Below are positions 28,201 to 46,200 of a stretch of 64,000 bases of DNA, in pieces. Within the stretch, counting starts at the first letter, position 1. The number at the start of each line of letters is the position of its first letter. Made by a program: the position numbers. The DNA is from an uncultured Aliarcobacter sp. (GTDB taxonomy: Bacteria; Campylobacterota; Campylobacteria; Campylobacterales; Arcobacteraceae), in assembly GCA_963677435.1 (NCBI GenBank), contig OY781945.1, forward strand, positions 128,001 to 192,000. The letters are read 5' to 3'.

Positions 28201-31200
28201 TTGATTATGAAATCACTATGCTAACTGTTAGAAATGGTAAAGAGACAGTATTTTGTGAACCAATTGGACATATTCAAAAAGATGGTGATTATATCTTCTC
28301 TTGGCAACCTATGAATATGAGTGATGTTGCTATTGCTAAATCTCAAGAAATCGCTAAAAAAATCACTGATGGTTTAGGTGGAAGAGGAATTTTCGGAGTT
28401 GAACTATTTGTAAAAGGCGATGATGTTTATTTTTCAGAAGTAAGTCCAAGACCTCATGATACGGGAATGGTTACTATGATTACTCAAAGTGCTAGTGAAT
28501 TTGCACTTCATGTAAGAGCTGTTTTAGGTTTACCAATTGATTTTGTAACTTATGGAGCAGGAGCAAGTGCTGCTTATAAAGCAAGTGGTGATAGTTTTAA
28601 TCCAAATATTGACATTTTTGATTCATCATTCACAAAAGATTCAATTATTAGAGTATTTGGTAAGCCACAAAGCCATGTGGGAAGAAGAATGGCAGTTGCA
28701 CTTACTTTTGATAAGGATTCAAGTGACAAAGCTTTACAAAAAGCAAAAGAGATTATAGGAAATTTTGCAGATAATTAAAATACAGAAACTGAACAAACAA
28801 GTTTTGTTCAGTTTATATTTTTATTGTTAAAGAGTATTGCATTCCTTCATTGTCTATTGGTGTAATATCAATTTTTCCATTTATTGCATATGCTAAATTT
28901 TTTGCTTCTAATATTGTTTTATTATCAACATCTGATAAAAACAGACTATGAATATTTTTTATTTCAAATCCATTATTTTTCACAATAATTTGAATATTTG
29001 ATTTAGATACTAATACATTTACTTCAATTTGTTTTTGTATTTTCCCTTTTTTTAACTCTTTTTTTATTAAATCAATACAAGATTGTTCTATAAAACAAGA
29101 TAAAATATTTTCGAAATAAGCTTTATCTAAATATATAGGTTTACTTAAAGTAGTTTCAACATCATAATCTATAAAAATTTTATATCTTACATTTGCATAG
29201 ACAAAATTATCAGTTCTTCTTTTATGTAATTCTAAAATGTAATTAAGATTATTTAAATTTGTAATTTTCTCATTTTTATGATTTAAATTTAATATTTCAT
29301 ACTCAAATTTTTTTAATTCTTCATATTGTAAAGCATATGAGTCAATAATTTGGAAAATGATTGTACTATTAATTAAATCTTCAACACCTAATTTATTAAT
29401 ATATTTATCAAAGATATCAGTGTTAAACATATCAAGGTAATATTTAAGATTAAAAAGCCTATTCTTTAAATTTAAAAGATTATTTATATCTTTAAAATAC
29501 TTATTTTTTAACTCTTTGGATAATAAACTATTTTTTAAATTCAACTCAATCATTTTAATGAAATTCTCATCATCAAAAATTAAATTTGTTACTTCGACTT
29601 TTTGTGATTCACCACATAATAATAGGACTTCTTTTAATTGGTCTTTTACAATCGTTAACGACTCGTCTAAACATAAACTTATTTCAAAAATTGAAGGTTG
29701 TATATCCTCATGGTTTTCATTAAAAACTTGTCGATTTAATCTTGTTTTTCCACCATTTTCACTAGAAAAAATTTCTGCTATATTAAAAAATTTATTGTAT
29801 TTAACAATTAAAATTTTTAACTCATTTGATATTTTTTCTATATCAAATGCAACCCCTGATATATTTTCATATTTATTATCCAATTTTATATCCTACATAC
29901 AATTTGAATCGGTAGCAGTTACATTATTATCAATAATCTGAAGCCAATTATTTTCATTAGCAACCAGCATTACATCACCTGATTTTTTCTTATATATTGT
30001 ATCAAGTTGCACCCAATCTGATTTCTTTTGTTTTACTGTAAATTGATCATCTAATTTTAAAACTCTTAATATTTTGGCATTTAATTCATTAGAATTTCTA
30101 ACATTTAAATTTGATTTTTTTACTGTATATAAACAACTTGAATTCTCATTATTAGAACTTTTTGCTACAGGTATTTTTGAGTCTTCTTTAGTAGAAACTT
30201 GGGAAAAAGCTTTTTTTACAGAAGTTTCTTCTTTAATCATTGCTTTTATTTCTTCTTTTTTAGGAGTTTTTTCACTATCATTTTTTTCTTCAACCTTTGG
30301 AATTTTCTTTAAATCACTTACTGAAATTCCATAATTACTTAAATAAATAGTATAACCATACTCTTCATCAAGTTTTTTATATAACTCAACACTTTTTGTT
30401 CTTGTATTAATGCTTACTATTTTATGCTCTAAAATTGAATCTCCAACAATATATCTTCCTTCTATATTAGCGCTTAATTCGTTACTTAGAGTTTTTTTAG
30501 CAGTTACTGCTTCATCTTCAAGTTTTAATACAACATAATCTTTTCCATTAAAAGAGTACATACTTTTAATTTTTAAATCTTTTAATTTTTTTGTTCTTGT
30601 AAAATCTGTTGTAAGTCTTGCCATATCATTTTGGTGAGTAAATACATATTTTTCATAATCTTCTTGGGAAAGTTTTGGTTCTTCTTTTACAATTGTTTGT
30701 ACTTGTGGATTACTTGGATTAATCGTGTTTGTATCTTTTTTATTTTTTATCGCACTTACTTGTTCTTCTAAATAATCTTTTTGTAGTCCTGTAATTGCAT
30801 TAAAAAACTCTTTTGATTGTTTATCTAAAACATCTAACTTATCAGCATTTTGCATCTGAGTCTGAATTGATTCTTCTGCATGTAAATTAAGTGCCATAAA
30901 AAATAGAAATGTAACTAATTTTATTTTTTTCATCTTTTCCCTTTTAAACTTTTATTTAAATATAAATTCATAATTAAATCCACCAATATATGTAGGATAT
31001 TTTATAAAGAATGGCCCTTTACTATCACTAGTCGTCCAATCACCTGATGTCATATTTGTAAGAAGATTATCTCCCCCTTCTGCAACTAAATAATCTTTAT
31101 TTATATCATATAAATTCGTATTAAATACAGGTATCATAAATGTATTACCAGTGGCATATCCAGATCTATAAAAAGATTGCATCCCCCAACAATACATTTG

Positions 31201-43200: not shown

Positions 43201-46200
43201 TTTATTTGTATTATTATTTAATGCAATTAAATCAAACAATTGTTTTGCAAAAATATCTTCTAAAATAAAATAAACAGCCCCACTTCTTACATAAGTTCTT
43301 TTTCTATAATTGTCACCCTCATATAAATTTTTTATACCTGAATCACTTGCCAATTCATTCCCTAAAGAATAACTCATTTTAGTTATACCAGATGTTAATG
43401 TTGTAACATTTACTTTATTAGTATCAATAGTAATAAATGAAGTAATTCCTCCACCTAAAAGTGTGTTTATATTCGCCATTGTAGGAAGTTTATAATTATT
43501 CAAAAGATACTCTTCATATGTTCTAGCAACTGATTCTTCATATTGAACTATATTTTTGACATTTTCCAAAGTTTCTTGTCTTTGTTCAAATGTTTCACTT
43601 TGAAGAAAAGAGAAACTAATAATTAAAAATAGAATAAATTTAATCATAATTCATCTTTTAGTTGATAATATAGCTTTGTTTCAGCAGCTGTTTCATTTAA
43701 ATAAAGTTTATCTTTAATCTTTGATTTAAAGTAATCTATTTTTCTATTTTTTAATACCGTTTCATTCAAAGTACTATCCAATGATATTTCAGTTGTTGTT
43801 CTAAAATCTTGATACATTTTATCATAAGGAATAAAATTATTATCATCATTTAAAAGCTTTGATAAAGTTTCTGATACTGTTTTATCTGAATATAAGATTT
43901 CAACTTCTAAGAAATGAATTGCTCTATTTACACTATTTTCAATCTGTTTGTCAGATAAAATTTCATTTTTATTATTTTCACCAATATTAATAGTATATTT
44001 TTTTGTTTCTTCATCAAAAGAAAGAGTATTTACATCTGTAATGTTTTTTAATTTTGCTTTTAAGGCTAGAAGTTTTAACTTTTCATCTTGACTTATTTCA
44101 ATATTTCCAGCACTATTCACTAGCTCTTTATTTGTTAAAGTGCTATTTTTATTTCTATCAAGTAATAAAACTTTTTCCCAATTTTCACCTTTTGGTAAAT
44201 TGGCAATTATTTCATCTCTTGTAATATCTTGGGGATTTTTGTTGTATTGCTTGGCTAAAAGTGTTTTGATTTCTGAGATTATTTCATAGTTTTCTTGGAT
44301 TTGTTTTGCTTCTTGAACATCACTATATGATTTGTACATAGCAGATGCTGAAAATATAGCTGTAACAATAAGAGCAGACGATAGCCATATATTTCCAAAC
44401 ATTAATAAAAACCCTTCAAAAAAAGAAACTTAAAATAAAAACTAAATACTATTGAGTTTTTAGTACTTAGTTTTTAGTTTATAAAAAAATAAACACTTAG
44501 GCTAAAGCCTAAATGTTAAAATTATAATACTGTACCTAAATCTTTAAAATATATTGTAAATATACCATCACCTAAAGATGCAGCATCTGATTTAACTGTA
44601 CCTGCTGCTCCAGTTGTGTCTAAAACAGTTGCAGGTCGATTTGCTTTAGGAACTTCTCCATCAGCTAAAGCAACTGGACTACCATCAGTTGTTGTTCTAT
44701 CTGTAGATGCTTGAGATGCTAAATCTGAAGAAATCTGTCCTTCTAAAAATGCCGCATTAGTCGCTAATCCATTAAGTAACTCAACTCTAAGTCCTGGTAC
44801 TGAACCTGCACCATTTAAAATTAAAGAAATATTCATTCCTGGGTTAGTTTTTCCACCAAAAGAAATTGCAGAATATGTATTTACTTCACCTGTTGCAAAA
44901 TTAGTTGAGGCAGCTGTTTTATTATCTTTAAGCTGTTCATTAATTTGTTTTGAGAAATATCCAAGATTTGCTAAATCTTTTAATGTTACACCTGCTTTAA
45001 GTTCACCTGTTTTAATTGCAACAATTAAATCACCCCTAATATTATTGATTTCTGTCATTACACTTGTTTTTTGTGCAACACCTTCAATTTTATCACCTGT
45101 TCCACCAAATGTTTGGAACATATAAATCATTGCTCCAACTACTACGATTACCATTGCTATCAACTGTGGCATACTTCTATCCTTTTTGTTAAGTTAAATT
45201 TCTTAGACCTTTAGGTCGGTATTATACTACAACTTCTTTTAGTTGCACCAATTTACTTGAATACTATACAAACAAAAAGCCCATCATTGTTTGTACCATC
45301 TTCTTTAAAATCTTCTGTTCCAACTGTAGAATCATAAGATTTCCCATTTGTCTGAAAAGTTCCAAAAAGCAACTTTTCACAAAATTCTCTTCCCGAAAAA
45401 CTTTCTGAAAAGATTGCCTTACTCATCAAACTTCCATTTGCACGCATATCAACTAAAAGTTTATATGCACTTCCAGCCGATGTTGCAAATTTTGCATCTG
45501 TACTTAGAACTGGAATCATCTGCCAAACTACTGAACTTGATGGGAATGTTAATTTTGAAGCTTTTGCAGAACCTTTAACATTATCAGTAGATGATGCAGT
45601 TGGTTTTGTCATTTTTATATTTCCTGACAAAATACCAGCATCATACAATACTTCAAAATTAATATCTGATAAACTTCCACCAGATTGGATATATGTATTT
45701 ACATATCCATCAATAACTAAAAACATTGACTTCATTCTATCAAGTTCAGCAGTGATAGAACTATTATCAGATTCATATCTTGTAAGCAAAATAACTGTTG
45801 CCGCAACAATAGCAAGTAGTGAGGATACAAGATAGGGCATTTTTTTCCTTAAGTAGATATATTCTAACTTCAAATTTATTCTAACATAAGACGCATTAAA
45901 AATTAACTTAAAAAGTTATAATTTAATTATTTTTCTATTATCTTTAGTTACAGGCTTTGTAATTATTGCCTTTATTTATGAATTAATTATTCTTATTTTA
46001 TTACTTTTCTCAAAATTTAAGAAATTAAGTACATATAAATTTTTTAGTATAAATAAAAAAAGCCCGATTTAAAAACTCCAAAGAGTAATTAAATCGGGCT
46101 TTTAGATGGTACGCCTGACAGGAGTCGAACCTGTAACCGCCGGGGCCGAAACCCGATGCTCTATCCAGTTGAGCCACAGACGCATTTGACATTCTTAAAA

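What a model noticed while it worked through the whole genome (the two positions that open the first line are those of the whole stretch)
28813..45840. Leaderless type IVb-like pilus machine of Arcobacteraceae
A 17-kb, 14-gene minus-strand operon (g00152-g00165) with no Pfam/NCBIfam/Swiss-Prot/PADLOC match except one T2SSE ATPase encodes, by predicted fold, a PilC/TcpE-like platform (g00158), a BfpB-like lipoprotein secretin (g00159) and two pilin-fold proteins (g00164, g00165) that begin directly with the hydrophobic helix (MPQLIAM..., MPYLVSS...) with no class-III leader, no Gly-1/Glu+5 and no prepilin peptidase in the operon. I read it as a new, very divergent branch of the type IV filament superfamily (closest to type IVb pili) whose pilins are inserted and polymerised without prepilin-peptidase processing, decorated by two large RCC1-repeat proteins (g00154, g00160). 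If true it is an undescri [...]
Evidence so far: Tables: only g00157 has a family row (T2SSE). Pfam at E<=0.05: only RCC1-like repeats in g00154/g00160 and SH3_3 in g00153. PADLOC: none. AF2 on 12-13-sequence orthologue alignments: g00158 pLDDT 84, VIA-align Z 14.4 to PilC N-domain 2whn, 13.3 PilC 3jc8, 13.0 EpsF 2vma, 11.2 TcpE 4hhx; g00159 pLDDT 66, top hit BfpB secretin of the T4bP 9u5s Z 11.8 over 304 aa, then GspD, InvG, RcpA, pIV secretins, Cys20 invariant; g00164 pLDDT 68, long N-helix + sheet, best Foldseek hits type IVb pilins (ETEC 9iuf E 2.4e-3, TcpA 8uhf, PilS 3fhu) but none at E<=1e-3; g00165 pLDDT 76, helix 2-52 + sheet, no clear hit. In all 12 aligned sequences (G000 + 11 genomes) the longest ORF of the g00164 orthologue sta [...]
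(Added by a program. Inside this text positions count along the whole contig: contig position 128,001 is position 1 of the stretch shown here. "Call 12" and the like, gene names such as g00115 and contig names such as C1 are that model's own, and its searches are not shown. The text may have been shortened before it was handed on; [...] marks where a part breaks off. The agent that wrote the report below was given it as the finding of a first reader that could run no searches.)

Follow-up and report, generated by a model that had tools for sequence, protein, structure and literature searches.

The report
Pilus machine with leaderless pilins
A 14-gene operon of an Arcobacter-family bacterium encodes a type IV pilus-like machine whose pilin-like subunits begin directly with the membrane helix, so it may build a filament without the leader-cutting enzyme thought to be universal for such machines.

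Summary
Window 28813-45840 (-) is a 14-gene operon conserved in gene order in 12 further loci. It encodes a GspE/PilB-type ATPase, a PilC-like platform, a BfpB-like lipoprotein secretin and two paralogous pilin-like proteins.

- **No leader.** g164 starts MPQLIAM at a strong ribosome site with in-frame stops upstream in 14 of 14 full-length orthologues. All 34 database relatives (of 40) that keep their N-terminus also start MP.
- **Pilin fold.** With 37 sequences, AF2 gives g164 pLDDT 81: a 53-residue N-terminal helix plus a sheet. A search of 48,161 chains ranks type IVb pilins first, but only at Z 7.1-7.6; Foldseek finds nothing significant.
- **Sister system.** Related systems in the same phylum keep canonical KKG|ITLIE pilins, so leader loss is probably derived.
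- **New here.** g161, g162 and the N-termini of both RCC1 proteins share one pilin-fold module behind Sec-type signal peptides. g160 starts at a conserved ATC. A conserved hairpin follows g164.

Best reading (about 0.6): a type IVb-like filament machine that polymerises leaderless pilins without prepilin-peptidase cleavage. No filament, N-terminal chemistry or function has been shown. It is a new variant of a known kind, of high interest.

The parts
45253..45840 (-). g165: leaderless pilin-like protein, 195 aa, starts MPYLVSS. Probably a minor or initiating pilin.
   Evidence: Position 2 in 15 orthologues is P in 7, A in 5, G in 1, F in 1 and ambiguous in 1. Cys154 and Cys191 are invariant. 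It is a paralogue of g164: hhalign 83%, E 8.5e-6. Not folded here.
44522..45172 (-). g164: leaderless pilin-like protein, 216 aa, starts MPQLIAM. Probably the major subunit.
   Evidence: The start is conserved in 14 of 14 full-length orthologues and in 34 of 34 database relatives that hold the N-terminus. AF2 gives pLDDT 81.1 with a helix at 2-54 plus a sheet. VIA-align ranks 9iuf (Z 7.6), 6t8s (7.6) and 8uhf (7.1) first. Residues 1-45 are 85% conserved against 36% for the rest.
44492..44517 (-). Hairpin followed by a T-run directly after the g164 stop: a terminator or attenuator, or an mRNA-stabilising 3' end.
   Evidence: Found by the scan. An equivalent 10-14 bp hairpin is present in 12 of 15 loci with different stem sequences.
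43644..44402 (-). g163: 252-aa membrane protein that starts at a hydrophobic segment (MFGNIWLSS...). Fold unknown.
   Evidence: N-termini of 13 orthologues. No relation to the other families by hhalign. No hit in the ESM Atlas.
42925..43647 (-). g162: Sec-type signal peptide followed by the pilin-fold module.
   Evidence: hhalign to g161 99.9%, E 1.9e-33. N-termini.
42173..42928 (-). g161: Sec-type signal peptide followed by the pilin-fold module, with a small C-terminal domain.
   Evidence: AF2 gives pLDDT 92.8 and pTM 0.86. The six best VIA-align rows are all pilins or pseudopilins, Z 5.2-6.9, over residues 1-146. Residues 201-251 resemble the collagen XV/XVIII trimerisation domain, Z 5.1 and 4.9.
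38774..42172 (-). g160: signal peptide, pilin-fold module, RCC1-like beta-propeller and two internal repeats. It starts at ATC 42172, directly after the g161 TAA stop.
   Evidence: RCC1 6.2e-7. The signal peptide is in frame upstream of the first ATG. The ATC is conserved in 5 genomes and is ATG in L057. The module matches g161: hhalign 98.8%.
37103..38761 (-). g159: outer-membrane lipoprotein secretin of the BfpB/PilN/MshL kind.
   Evidence: The family profile hits BfpB 9u5s at 2.4e-18. MshL 1.2e-11 and PilN type IVb 5.8e-5. Lipobox Cys20 is invariant in 13 of 13.
36084..37100 (-). g158: PilC/GspF-like inner-membrane platform.
   Evidence: The profile hits PilC 2whn at 2.5e-4 and 3jc8 at 2.3e-3. 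It is homologous to sister-system platforms (BLAST 1e-7 to 1e-10). One of these passes Pfam T2SSF.
34381..36072 (-). g157: GspE/PilB-type assembly ATPase with a Walker A motif and a CxxC...CxxC motif.
   Evidence: T2SSE 8.5e-66. GspE 4pht 3.8e-44, PilB 5zfr 3.8e-39, BfpD 1.8e-18. Motifs read.
33638..34393 (-). g156: cytoplasmic domain, one membrane helix and a coiled coil. GspL/BfpC-like by topology only.
   Evidence: Sequence. No PDB or Pfam match. Conserved in all loci, including the 8-gene variant.
33150..33641 (-). g155: N-terminal membrane helix, coiled coil and a small domain. GspM/PilO-like by topology only.
   Evidence: Sequence. Only a weak DivIC match, 0.0036. Conserved in all loci.
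30952..33150 (-). g154: signal peptide, pilin-fold module and RCC1-like beta-propeller.
   Evidence: WD40_RLD 3.7e-13, below the curated cut-off. The module matches g161: hhalign 99.5%, E 2.3e-23.
29893..30933 (-). g153: secreted protein with a C-terminal SH3_3 domain.
   Evidence: SH3_3 2.8e-6, over the cut-off. Its N-terminal part is kept in the 8-gene variant.
28813..29883 (-). g152: cytoplasmic protein of unknown role, the last gene of the operon.
   Evidence: No family or PDB match. Present in the 12 full loci and absent from the 8-gene variant.
28786..28814 (.). Two-way terminator-like hairpin at the 3' end of the operon.

Best explanation
The operon encodes a type IVb-like type IV filament machine that uses pilins made without a class III leader.

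**Shown**
- A GspE/PilB-type ATPase (g157), a PilC-like platform (g158) and a BfpB-like lipoprotein secretin (g159) are encoded together with two paralogous proteins (g164, g165).
- These two proteins have the length, N-terminal helix and predicted lollipop fold of type IVb pilins. Their translation starts at the first residue of the hydrophobic helix.

**Inferred**
- g164, g165 and perhaps g163 insert into the inner membrane with the N-terminus inside and the C-terminus outside. The flank after the helix is net negative.
- They are therefore already 'mature'. Either the initiator Met stands in for Met1 of type IVb pilins, or methionine aminopeptidase removes it to leave Pro, Ala or Gly at the position equivalent to +1.
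- No prepilin-peptidase cleavage is needed, and the usual Glu5 is absent.
- The ATPase, through the platform and the g156/g155 pair, lifts the pilins out of the membrane into a filament that leaves through the secretin.
- g164 is the major subunit. It has a very conserved N-terminus, a variable C-terminal part, a likely promoter of its own and a conserved hairpin after its stop.
- g161, g162 and the two propeller proteins g154 and g160 reach the periplasm through Sec. They use their shared pilin-fold module to join the filament tip, much as PilY1 with minor pilins or CofB/TcpB do, or else they are exported by the machine. The beta-propellers would act as adhesins.
For: **The machine**
- T2SSE 8.5e-66.
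- The platform profile hits PilC at 2.5e-4.
- The secretin profile hits BfpB at 2.4e-18, with an invariant lipobox Cys.

**Conservation**
- All 14 genes keep their order in 12 further loci. An 8-gene core is kept in 2 more.
- The platform occurs in 42 of 184 genomes of the family.

**No leader**
- g164 shows it in 14 of 14 full-length orthologues, with ribosome sites and upstream in-frame stops.
- A profile search of 1.84 billion proteins found 40 relatives. All 34 that hold the N-terminus begin MP at residue 1.
- The compact loci carry a third, modular pilin-like protein (458 and 373 aa) that starts MPF.

**Fold**
- g164 has pLDDT 81.1 and pTM 0.75.
- Ten of the 12 best of 48,161 chains are pilins, led by the ETEC type IVb pilin (Z 7.6, 156 residues), PilA1 (7.6) and TcpA (7.1).
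- Model residues 2-3 align with residue 1 of the mature pilins.
- g165 is a paralogue with an invariant Cys pair.

**Major-subunit signs**
- Residues 1-45 are 85% conserved against 36% for the rest.
- A hairpin follows the stop in 12 of 15 loci.

**Sister systems**
- They share secretin, platform and ATPase homologues and carry canonical pilins that match N_methyl.

**Module**
- g161 has pLDDT 92.8, and its six best structural neighbours are all pilins or pseudopilins.
- The module is shared with g162, g154 and g160 at 98-99.9% hhalign probability.

**Background**
- The review PMC10191384 (passages read) states that leaders invariably end in Gly or Ala. It also names the peptidase as one of four core proteins.
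Against: - **Weak structural scores.** Z is below 8, which the tool warns can reflect only a common arrangement. Foldseek gave no hit at E <= 1e-3 for g164 (best 0.57) or for g161.
- **No sequence link to known pilins.** hhalign of g164 against the sister pilins gave E 0.18, and g165 gave E 0.0029 at 10.6% probability. None of the 100 family members scanned hits a pilin family in Pfam.
- **g165 and g163 were not folded here.**
- **Unusual features.** A major pilin without Glu5 and without positive N-terminal charges is unusual, and its membrane insertion is untested.
- **The peptidase cannot be excluded by distribution.** A housekeeping peptidase exists in this genome and in 181 of 184 genomes of the family.
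- **Expression is not established.** It rests only on contigs in RNA libraries, which may hold DNA.
- **No filament has been seen.**
Confidence: 0.6

Rival explanations
1. The machine works as a type II secretion-like exporter. g164 and g165 form a short periplasmic pseudopilus that pushes the Sec-exported operon proteins (g154, g160, g161, g162, perhaps g153) through the secretin. No long surface pilus is made.
For: - Four or five operon proteins carry Sec-type signal peptides and must still cross the outer membrane to act as adhesins.
- The ATPase scores best with GspE (3.8e-44).
- Type IVb machines are known to export soluble proteins such as TcpF and CofJ (recalled, not from a call).
Against: - The C-terminal two thirds of g164 vary strongly: 36% conservation against 85% for residues 1-45.
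- In metatranscriptome contigs the 3' part of g164 is replaced by unlike sequence. This fits a surface-exposed subunit better than a periplasmic piston.
- The conserved hairpin after g164 suggests a large excess of subunit.
- The 8-gene variant lacks g154 and g160-g162 yet keeps both pilin-like genes and the machine.
Confidence: 0.2
2. g164 and g165 are not polymerising subunits. They are membrane-anchored accessory parts of the machine (like PilN/PilO or GspC/GspM), and the filament is made of classical pilins encoded elsewhere and cut by the housekeeping peptidase.
For: - The genome has at least five N_methyl-type pilin-like genes and one peptidase elsewhere.
- Structural scores for g164 are only moderate, and there is no sequence match to pilins.
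Against: - g155 and g156 already fill the GspM/GspL-like places.
- g164's best structural neighbours are full-length pilins aligned from their first residue.
- The near-invariant 45-residue N-terminus, the variable head, the Cys pair of g165 and the hairpin after g164 are all pilin traits.
- The classical pilin genes belong to a scattered system that has its own ATPase, platform and secretins.
- The peptidase, probably part of that system, is present in 181 of 184 genomes of the family, while the operon's platform is in 42 of 184.
Confidence: 0.12
3. The hydrophobic N-terminus of g164 and g165 is an unusual cleaved signal peptide, or it is cut at an atypical site by the housekeeping peptidase or another protease. 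The mature proteins would then be soluble periplasmic or secreted proteins.
For: A conserved GGTG follows the hydrophobic stretch of g164.
Against: - Residues 1-30 are nearly invariant across genera, unlike signal peptides.
- There is no positive n-region.
- AF2 predicts one continuous helix from 2 to 54 at pLDDT 83-96.
- Nothing lies N-terminal of the helix for a prepilin peptidase to remove.
Confidence: 0.06

Closest known systems
Type IVb pili (Bfp of EPEC, TCP of Vibrio cholerae, CFA/III and Longus of ETEC, R64 thin pilus)
   Same: - One compact operon.
- A lipoprotein secretin related to BfpB (2.4e-18).
- One assembly ATPase and no retraction ATPase in the locus.
- A PilC/TcpE-like platform.
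- Pilins of about 200 aa whose predicted fold is nearest to CofA, TcpA and PilS.
- Large extra proteins that could sit at the tip, as CofB and TcpB do.
   Different: - No leader peptide, no Gly or Ala at -1 and no Glu5.
- No prepilin peptidase gene in the operon.
- The ATPase is closer to GspE/PilB than to BfpD.
- The accessory pilin-fold proteins use Sec-type signal peptides.
- The putative adhesins are RCC1-like propellers.
Sister type IVb-like systems of Campylobacterota (loci L060-L063; Caminibacter pacificus plasmid NZ_CP040940.1)
   Same: - Homologous secretin (23-27% identity), platform (20-28%) and ATPase (26-33%).
- A 275-aa protein with a signal peptide and helix that is weakly related to the g161 module: hhalign 64%, E 6.8e-5.
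   Different: - Their pilins have classical leaders (...KKG|ITLIE...KKG|FTILE...RKA|ISMVE) with Glu5 and N_methyl matches.
- The gene order differs.
- An SLT transglycosylase is present.
- On the Caminibacter plasmid (and its near-identical locus L099) they lie beside genes I read as type IV secretion-like.
Type II secretion system
   Same: A GspE-like ATPase with a Zn-finger motif, a GspF-like platform, a secretin, GspL/GspM-like membrane partners by topology, and Sec-dependent candidate cargo.
   Different: - No N_methyl pseudopilins and no GspC.
- The secretin does not reach the Pfam Secretin model.
- The subunit head is hypervariable.
PilY1 with the minor-pilin tip complex of type IVa pili
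   Same: A large Sec-exported protein with a beta-propeller that is thought to sit on pilin-like partners at the filament tip. What is known about PilY1 is recalled here, not taken from a call.
   Different: Here the propeller is RCC1-like and is fused to a pilin-fold module. There is no sequence relation and no test of binding.

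Membership tests
Type IV pilin (class III signal peptide, IPR012902 / Pfam N_methyl) | Hydrophilic leader peptide ending in Gly or Ala that is removed by the prepilin peptidase | tested here: not met
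   g164 and g165 start at the hydrophobic helix. In-frame stops and ribosome sites lie upstream in 14 of 14 and 15 of 15 orthologues. All 34 relatives that hold the N-terminus start MP. The definition comes from PMC10191384.
Type IV pilin (class III signal peptide, IPR012902 / Pfam N_methyl) | Stretch of 20-25 hydrophobic residues forming the N-terminal half of a long alpha-1 helix | tested here: met
   g164 residues 2-22 are hydrophobic, and the predicted helix runs from 2 to 54. g165 is equivalent.
Type IV pilin (class III signal peptide, IPR012902 / Pfam N_methyl) | Glu at position 5 of the mature protein (frequent, not universal) | tested here: not met
   The first acidic residue of g164 is Asp27. 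g165 has none before Glu23.
Type IV pilin (class III signal peptide, IPR012902 / Pfam N_methyl) | Lollipop fold: a long N-terminal helix packed on an antiparallel sheet | tested here: met
   This rests on predicted models only. For g164 (pLDDT 81.1), 10 of the 12 best chains are pilins, at Z up to 7.6. Foldseek is not significant.
Type IV pilin (class III signal peptide, IPR012902 / Pfam N_methyl) | C-terminal disulfide-bonded region | tested here: inconclusive
   g165 has invariant Cys154 and Cys191. g164 has no Cys.
Type IV pilin (class III signal peptide, IPR012902 / Pfam N_methyl) | Polymerises into a helical filament | not testable with these tools
There are no experimental data.
Type IV filament machinery (four core proteins) | GspE/PilB-family assembly ATPase | tested here: met
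   g157: T2SSE 8.5e-66 and GspE 3.8e-44.
Type IV filament machinery (four core proteins) | PilC/GspF-family platform protein | tested here: met
   The profile hits PilC 2whn at 2.5e-4 and 3jc8 at 2.3e-3. g158 is linked by BLAST to sister platforms. One of these passes Pfam T2SSF. g158 alone reaches only E 0.035-0.52.
Type IV filament machinery (four core proteins) | Dedicated prepilin peptidase acting on the system's pilins | tested here: not met
   There is none in the operon or window. One gene lies elsewhere, at C1:532392. Its presence in 181 of 184 genomes of the family makes co-occurrence uninformative. Whether it acts on g164 is not testable here.
Type IVb pilus clade | Lipoprotein secretin of the BfpB/TcpC/PilN type | tested here: met
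   BfpB 2.4e-18 over 349 profile positions. Cys20 is invariant. PilN type IVb 5.8e-5 and MshL 1.2e-11.
Type IVb pilus clade | Placement of the ATPase and platform inside the type IVb clade in a tree | not tested
   No reference tree was built. By E-value the ATPase is nearer to GspE/PilB than to BfpD.
Type II secretion system | N_methyl pseudopilins GspG-K, GspC, and a GspD secretin that matches Pfam Secretin | tested here: not met
   The window has no N_methyl hit and no Secretin-model hit.

The most novel reading that the evidence does not exclude
This is a natural type IV filament that has dropped the leader peptide and the prepilin-peptidase step altogether.

- The pilins are born mature.
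- The strictly conserved Met-Pro start means that methionine aminopeptidase exposes an N-terminal proline. Proline is a built-in secondary amine that mimics the N-methylated first residue of classical pilins.
- Glu5 has been lost along with the leader.
- The tip adhesins are Sec-exported pilin-fold modules fused to beta-propellers, which dock without a membrane-extraction step.

If so, the peptidase is not a universal core part of these machines.
Probability: 0.4. Interest if true: 0.88.

Novelty: new variant of a known kind. Interest (0 to 1): 0.78.

Why it matters
The class III leader and its peptidase are treated as defining, universal parts of type IV filaments: pili, type II secretion pseudopili, competence pili and archaella (PMC10191384, passages read).

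A conserved natural system whose subunits lack the leader and Glu5 would show that neither is mechanistically required for membrane extraction and polymerisation. It would also be a natural experiment on three long-open questions:

- what the leader is for;
- what N-methylation is for;
- what the Glu5 to N-terminus salt bridge is for.

It adds a new way of attaching large adhesin domains, through Sec-exported pilin-fold modules.

It also marks a surface structure of Arcobacter/Aliarcobacter, bacteria common in wastewater. I found no pilus reported for them: searching 'Aliarcobacter, pilus, pilin' gave 0 papers, and none of the four listed titles for 'Arcobacter, type IV pili, secretin' concerns an Arcobacter pilus (search listings only).

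Tried and rejected
**Searches that found nothing useful**
- Foldseek against the PDB for g164 and g161 gave no hit at E <= 1e-3.
- PDB profile searches for g164, g156 and g152 gave nothing meaningful.
- hhalign of g164 and g165 against three canonical sister pilins was not significant.
- hhalign of the g161 family against the L062 272-aa protein found nothing.
- The ESM Atlas gave no usable hit for g163. For g165 it gave only leads: N_methyl on 22% and PilM on 23% of members, at score 0.90.
- Pfam on 48 + 37 + 15 family members found no pilin family, only scattered noise.
- A plasmid search with g164 found no match.

**Tests that could not discriminate**
- The peptidase is in 181 of 184 genomes of the family, so its co-occurrence with the operon says nothing.

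- Complex prediction was asked for a g161 homotrimer and was not available.

**Literature**
- 'leaderless pilin' gave 0 papers.
- 'Aliarcobacter, pilus, pilin' gave 0 papers.
- 'pilin, without a leader peptide, type IV' gave 3 papers. The one I read (one passage) concerns a truncated archaellin of unknown function.
- 'Arcobacter, type IV pili, secretin' gave nothing relevant.
- Subscription journals are not covered by these searches.

**Reads laid on the window**
- The 3' half of g164 has no cover in the three metatranscriptome runs at 90% likeness, and contigs join across it with other letters.
- I read this as other alleles, not as absence.

**Idea considered and dropped**
- A hidden upstream start for g164, like the ATC start of g160. 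In most loci an in-frame stop lies within about 12 codons upstream.
- Any near-cognate codon before the ATG lies upstream of the ribosome site, or directly beside the ATG in L050.

Full report
**1. What is there**

Window 28813-45873 holds 14 minus-strand ORFs, here called g152 to g165, that overlap or lie close together.
- The operon ends at a two-way terminator-like hairpin at 28786-28814.
- It begins downstream of a tRNA-Arg(TCG) gene at 46107-46183, which has its own terminator.
- The flanking genes are housekeeping: CoaE, DapF, a glucosaminidase and a PurT-like ATP-grasp enzyme on one side, UbiA and MiaA on the other.
- GC content does not stand out.
- In three complete genomes of the same genus that lack the operon, the PurT-like and UbiA genes lie only 2.4-6 kb apart, against 17.5 kb here. 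The operon therefore behaves as a presence/absence block at a fixed site.

**2. The machine**

At curated cut-offs Pfam names only four things:
- T2SSE for g157 (8.5e-66);
- SH3_3 for g153;
- RCC1 and RCC1_2 repeats for g160.

The RCC1-like match of g154 (WD40_RLD, 3.7e-13, 50 bits) is below its cut-off of 150.

More sensitive tests place the other core parts.
- **Secretin g159.** A profile of 13 sequences hits the BfpB secretin of the EPEC type IVb pilus at 2.4e-18 over 349 positions. The single sequence gives MshL 1.2e-11 and PilN type IVb secretin 5.8e-5. The lipobox Cys20 is invariant in 13 of 13.
- **Platform g158.** A profile of 14 sequences hits PilC (2whn 2.5e-4, 3jc8 2.3e-3). The protein has three hydrophobic segments where PilC-type proteins do. 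PilC topology is recalled, not from a call.
- **ATPase g157.** It has a Walker A motif and a CxxC...CxxC motif. It scores best with GspE (3.8e-44) and PilB (3.8e-39), and less well with BfpD (1.8e-18).
- **g156 and g155.** They have the topology of GspL/BfpC-like and GspM/PilO-like partners but match no family or solved structure. These roles are inferred.

I did not re-fold g158, g159 or g165.

**3. The pilin-like proteins have no leader**

For g164:
- All 14 full-length orthologues start MPQLIA or MPLLIA at an ATG that lies 5-9 bases behind an AGGAG-like site. In-frame stops lie upstream, in most loci within about 12 codons.
- A profile search of 1.84 billion representative proteins found only 40 relatives. 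Six are fragments without the N-terminus. All other 34 begin MP at residue 1. No relative with a leader exists in that library.

For g165:
- All 15 orthologues start at the helix. Position 2 is P in 7, A in 5, G in 1, F in 1 and ambiguous in 1.
- The 11-codon TTG extension in the window is not conserved.

Further points:
- The two compact loci carry a third, modular protein (458 and 373 aa) that starts MPF, has a g165-like domain and ends in C-terminal repeats.
- The own genome has one prepilin peptidase, at C1:532392. No N_methyl hit lies in the window.

**4. Are they pilins?**

Evidence for:
- With 37 sequences, AF2 gives g164 pLDDT 81.1 and pTM 0.75. The model has one helix from 2 to 54, then short helices and a five-stranded sheet. 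The low-confidence stretch (residues about 165-200) falls in a poorly aligned, variable part of the protein.
- VIA-align against 48,161 chains ranks these first:
  - ETEC type IVb pilin 9iuf: Z 7.6, rmsd 5.1, 156 residues, model 3-212 on chain 1-208;
  - C. difficile PilA1: Z 7.6;
  - TcpA 8uhf: Z 7.1, model 2-212 on chain 1-199;
  - PilS: Z 5.4.
- Ten of the 12 best rows are pilins.
- g164 and g165 are paralogues (hhalign 83%, E 8.5e-6).
- g165 has an invariant Cys pair near its C-terminus, a common pilin trait.
- g164 residues 1-45 are 85% conserved against 36% for the rest, across 37 sequences.
- A 10-14 bp hairpin directly follows the g164 stop in 12 of 15 loci, with different stem sequences. 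The other three loci have gaps of 5-24 nt.
- A TATAAT lies about 55-60 nt upstream of the g164 ATG (read directly).

Evidence against:
- The tool warns that Z below 8 can reflect a common arrangement.
- Foldseek gives no significant hit; its best rows are PilA1 and TcpA at E about 0.6.
- There is no sequence link to known pilins.

Taken together, the positive traits are those of a major pilin gene.

**5. A sister system keeps classical pilins**

- Loci from four other genomes of the family, and a Caminibacter pacificus plasmid, encode homologous proteins. The secretin is 23-27% identical, the platform 20-28% and the ATPase 26-33%.
- In the locus scanned with Pfam (L062) these parts pass or nearly pass T2SSF and Secretin.
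- Their pilins have classical leaders and Glu5...KKG|ITLIE...KKG|FTILE...RKA|ISMVE.
- On the Caminibacter plasmid (and its near-identical locus L099) the system lies beside an SLT transglycosylase. It also lies beside other genes that I read as type IV secretion-like.
- The leaderless operon therefore probably derives from a classical type IVb-like ancestor. This is an inference; no tree was built.
- The platform profile is rare outside the family. It was found in 2 of 378 other sampled genomes of the phylum, and in 10 of 401 in all.
- The g164 relatives with named records are Arcobacter, Aliarcobacter, Poseidonibacter and Arcobacteraceae metagenome bins, plus bins labelled only to order or phylum (or not at all) and one that is mislabelled.

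**6. New: a Sec-exported pilin-fold module**

- g161, g162 and the first 220 or so residues of g154 and g160 are one family (hhalign 98.1-99.9%).
- Each has a Sec-type signal peptide: one Lys, 10-13 hydrophobic residues and a small-residue site.
- AF2 on 48 sequences gives g161 pLDDT 92.8.
- Its six best neighbours are all pilins or pseudopilins, over residues 1-146: PilA1 6.9, CofA 6.0, PilA4 5.7, TcpA 5.5, EpsG 5.3, PulG 5.2.
- Residues 201-251 resemble the collagen XV/XVIII trimerisation domain, at Z 5.1 and 4.9. Foldseek finds nothing.
- A 275-aa protein of the sister system is weakly related (64%, E 6.8e-5).
- The two RCC1 proteins are therefore not just neighbours. They carry the same pilin-fold module as g161 and g162. 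This suggests they dock at the filament tip, though export by the machine is also possible.
- Whether the signal peptide is cut or serves as a short anchor cannot be told here.

**7. Mechanism proposed**

Shown: the parts list, the missing leader and the predicted folds. The rest is inferred.
- The pilins insert with the N-terminus inside and the C-terminus outside. The 15-20 residues after the helix are net negative in g164, g165 and g163 (read).
- They need no cleavage.
- hhalign and VIA-align put Pro2 at the +1 position and Ala6 where Glu5 would be (the hhalign match itself is not significant).
- Either the initiator Met is kept and plays the part of Met1 of type IVb pilins, or methionine aminopeptidase exposes Pro, Ala or Gly. 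These are all residues it accepts at position 2 (its specificity is recalled).
- In classical pili Glu5 neutralises the N-terminal amine of the next subunit (PMC10191384). A formylated N-terminus would make Glu5 unnecessary. This is speculation.

**8. Expression**

- Contigs from wastewater RNA libraries cover g165 and the 5' end of g164. Three runs are metatranscriptomes of one study, and one run of another study is only guessed to be RNA.
- In these contigs the 3' part of g164 is replaced by unlike sequence.
- This is only a hint of transcription, because such libraries can hold DNA. It does agree with variation among g164 alleles.

**9. Verdict**

I rate a type IV filament machine at about 0.9, true leaderless starts at about 0.9, pilin-fold subunits at about 0.75, and peptidase-independent polymerisation at about 0.6.

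It fails the formal definition of a type IV pilin (leader, Gly/Ala at -1, Glu5) while working, by all signs, like one. It is best described as a new variant of a known kind.

Noticed in passing
window 42103-42175 (-); L064, L055, L056, L065: The signal peptide of g160 is encoded in frame directly after the g161 TAA stop. The only possible start is an ATC codon (TAA-ATC-AAA). It is conserved in five genomes, and another genome has ATG at the same place. This looks like a conserved non-canonical start with tight coupling to g161.
   Followed up: yes
G000:C1:1102233-1103250 (outside the window): The genome's second T2SSE ATPase gene, which sits next to a classical T2SSF gene, is split into two frames with a TAA between them. 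It may be a pseudogene or a sequencing error in the scattered classical system.
   Followed up: no
L094/L098 (G015:C1:755286-757618) and L059 10588-12227: The operon shows signs of decay in some genomes. In G015 the platform gene is in two pieces about 1.3 kb apart. In L059 the ATPase gene is split into two overlapping ORFs.
   Followed up: no
L047 2530-3906 (+); L048 14164-15285 (-): The 8-gene compact variant lacks g152, g154 and g160-g163. It has instead a divergently placed modular leaderless pilin-like protein (MPF..., 458 and 373 aa) with two or three C-terminal repeats that end in APTKNKAPTLED.
   Followed up: partly
L100 (G309:C10), 6289-16875: A genome of another family of the same order has secretin, ATPase and platform genes plus two g154-like module proteins. 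These lie near an SLT-like gene and upstream genes I took to be type IV secretion-like, which I did not check. Its pilin-like ORFs have odd N-termini: MFFSKDMIMYAF... behind a good ribosome site, and MQASIVILVIL.... Atypical or leaderless pilins may be wider spread.
   Followed up: partly
window 46107-46183 (-): A tRNA-Arg(TCG) gene lies directly upstream of the operon. In related genomes without the operon, the flanking PurT-like and UbiA genes lie only 2.4-6 kb apart. The operon may be an island-like insertion or deletion at this site. No integrase was seen within about 3 kb on either side.
   Followed up: partly
window 38774-42172 (-), residues about 640-1030 of g160: Two tandem domains of about 190 aa, each beginning ...ENFENS..., are inserted before the last propeller blade of g160. 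They match no Pfam family and may be binding modules.
   Followed up: no
C-termini of g154, g160, g164, g165 (window 30952, 38774, 44522, 45253): These four proteins end in related strands: ...GGFNYEFIFK, ...GGFDYPFYFK, ...DGIFTIYFKD..., ...DGLFVCIVFK. The shared C-terminal motif is unexplained.
   Followed up: no
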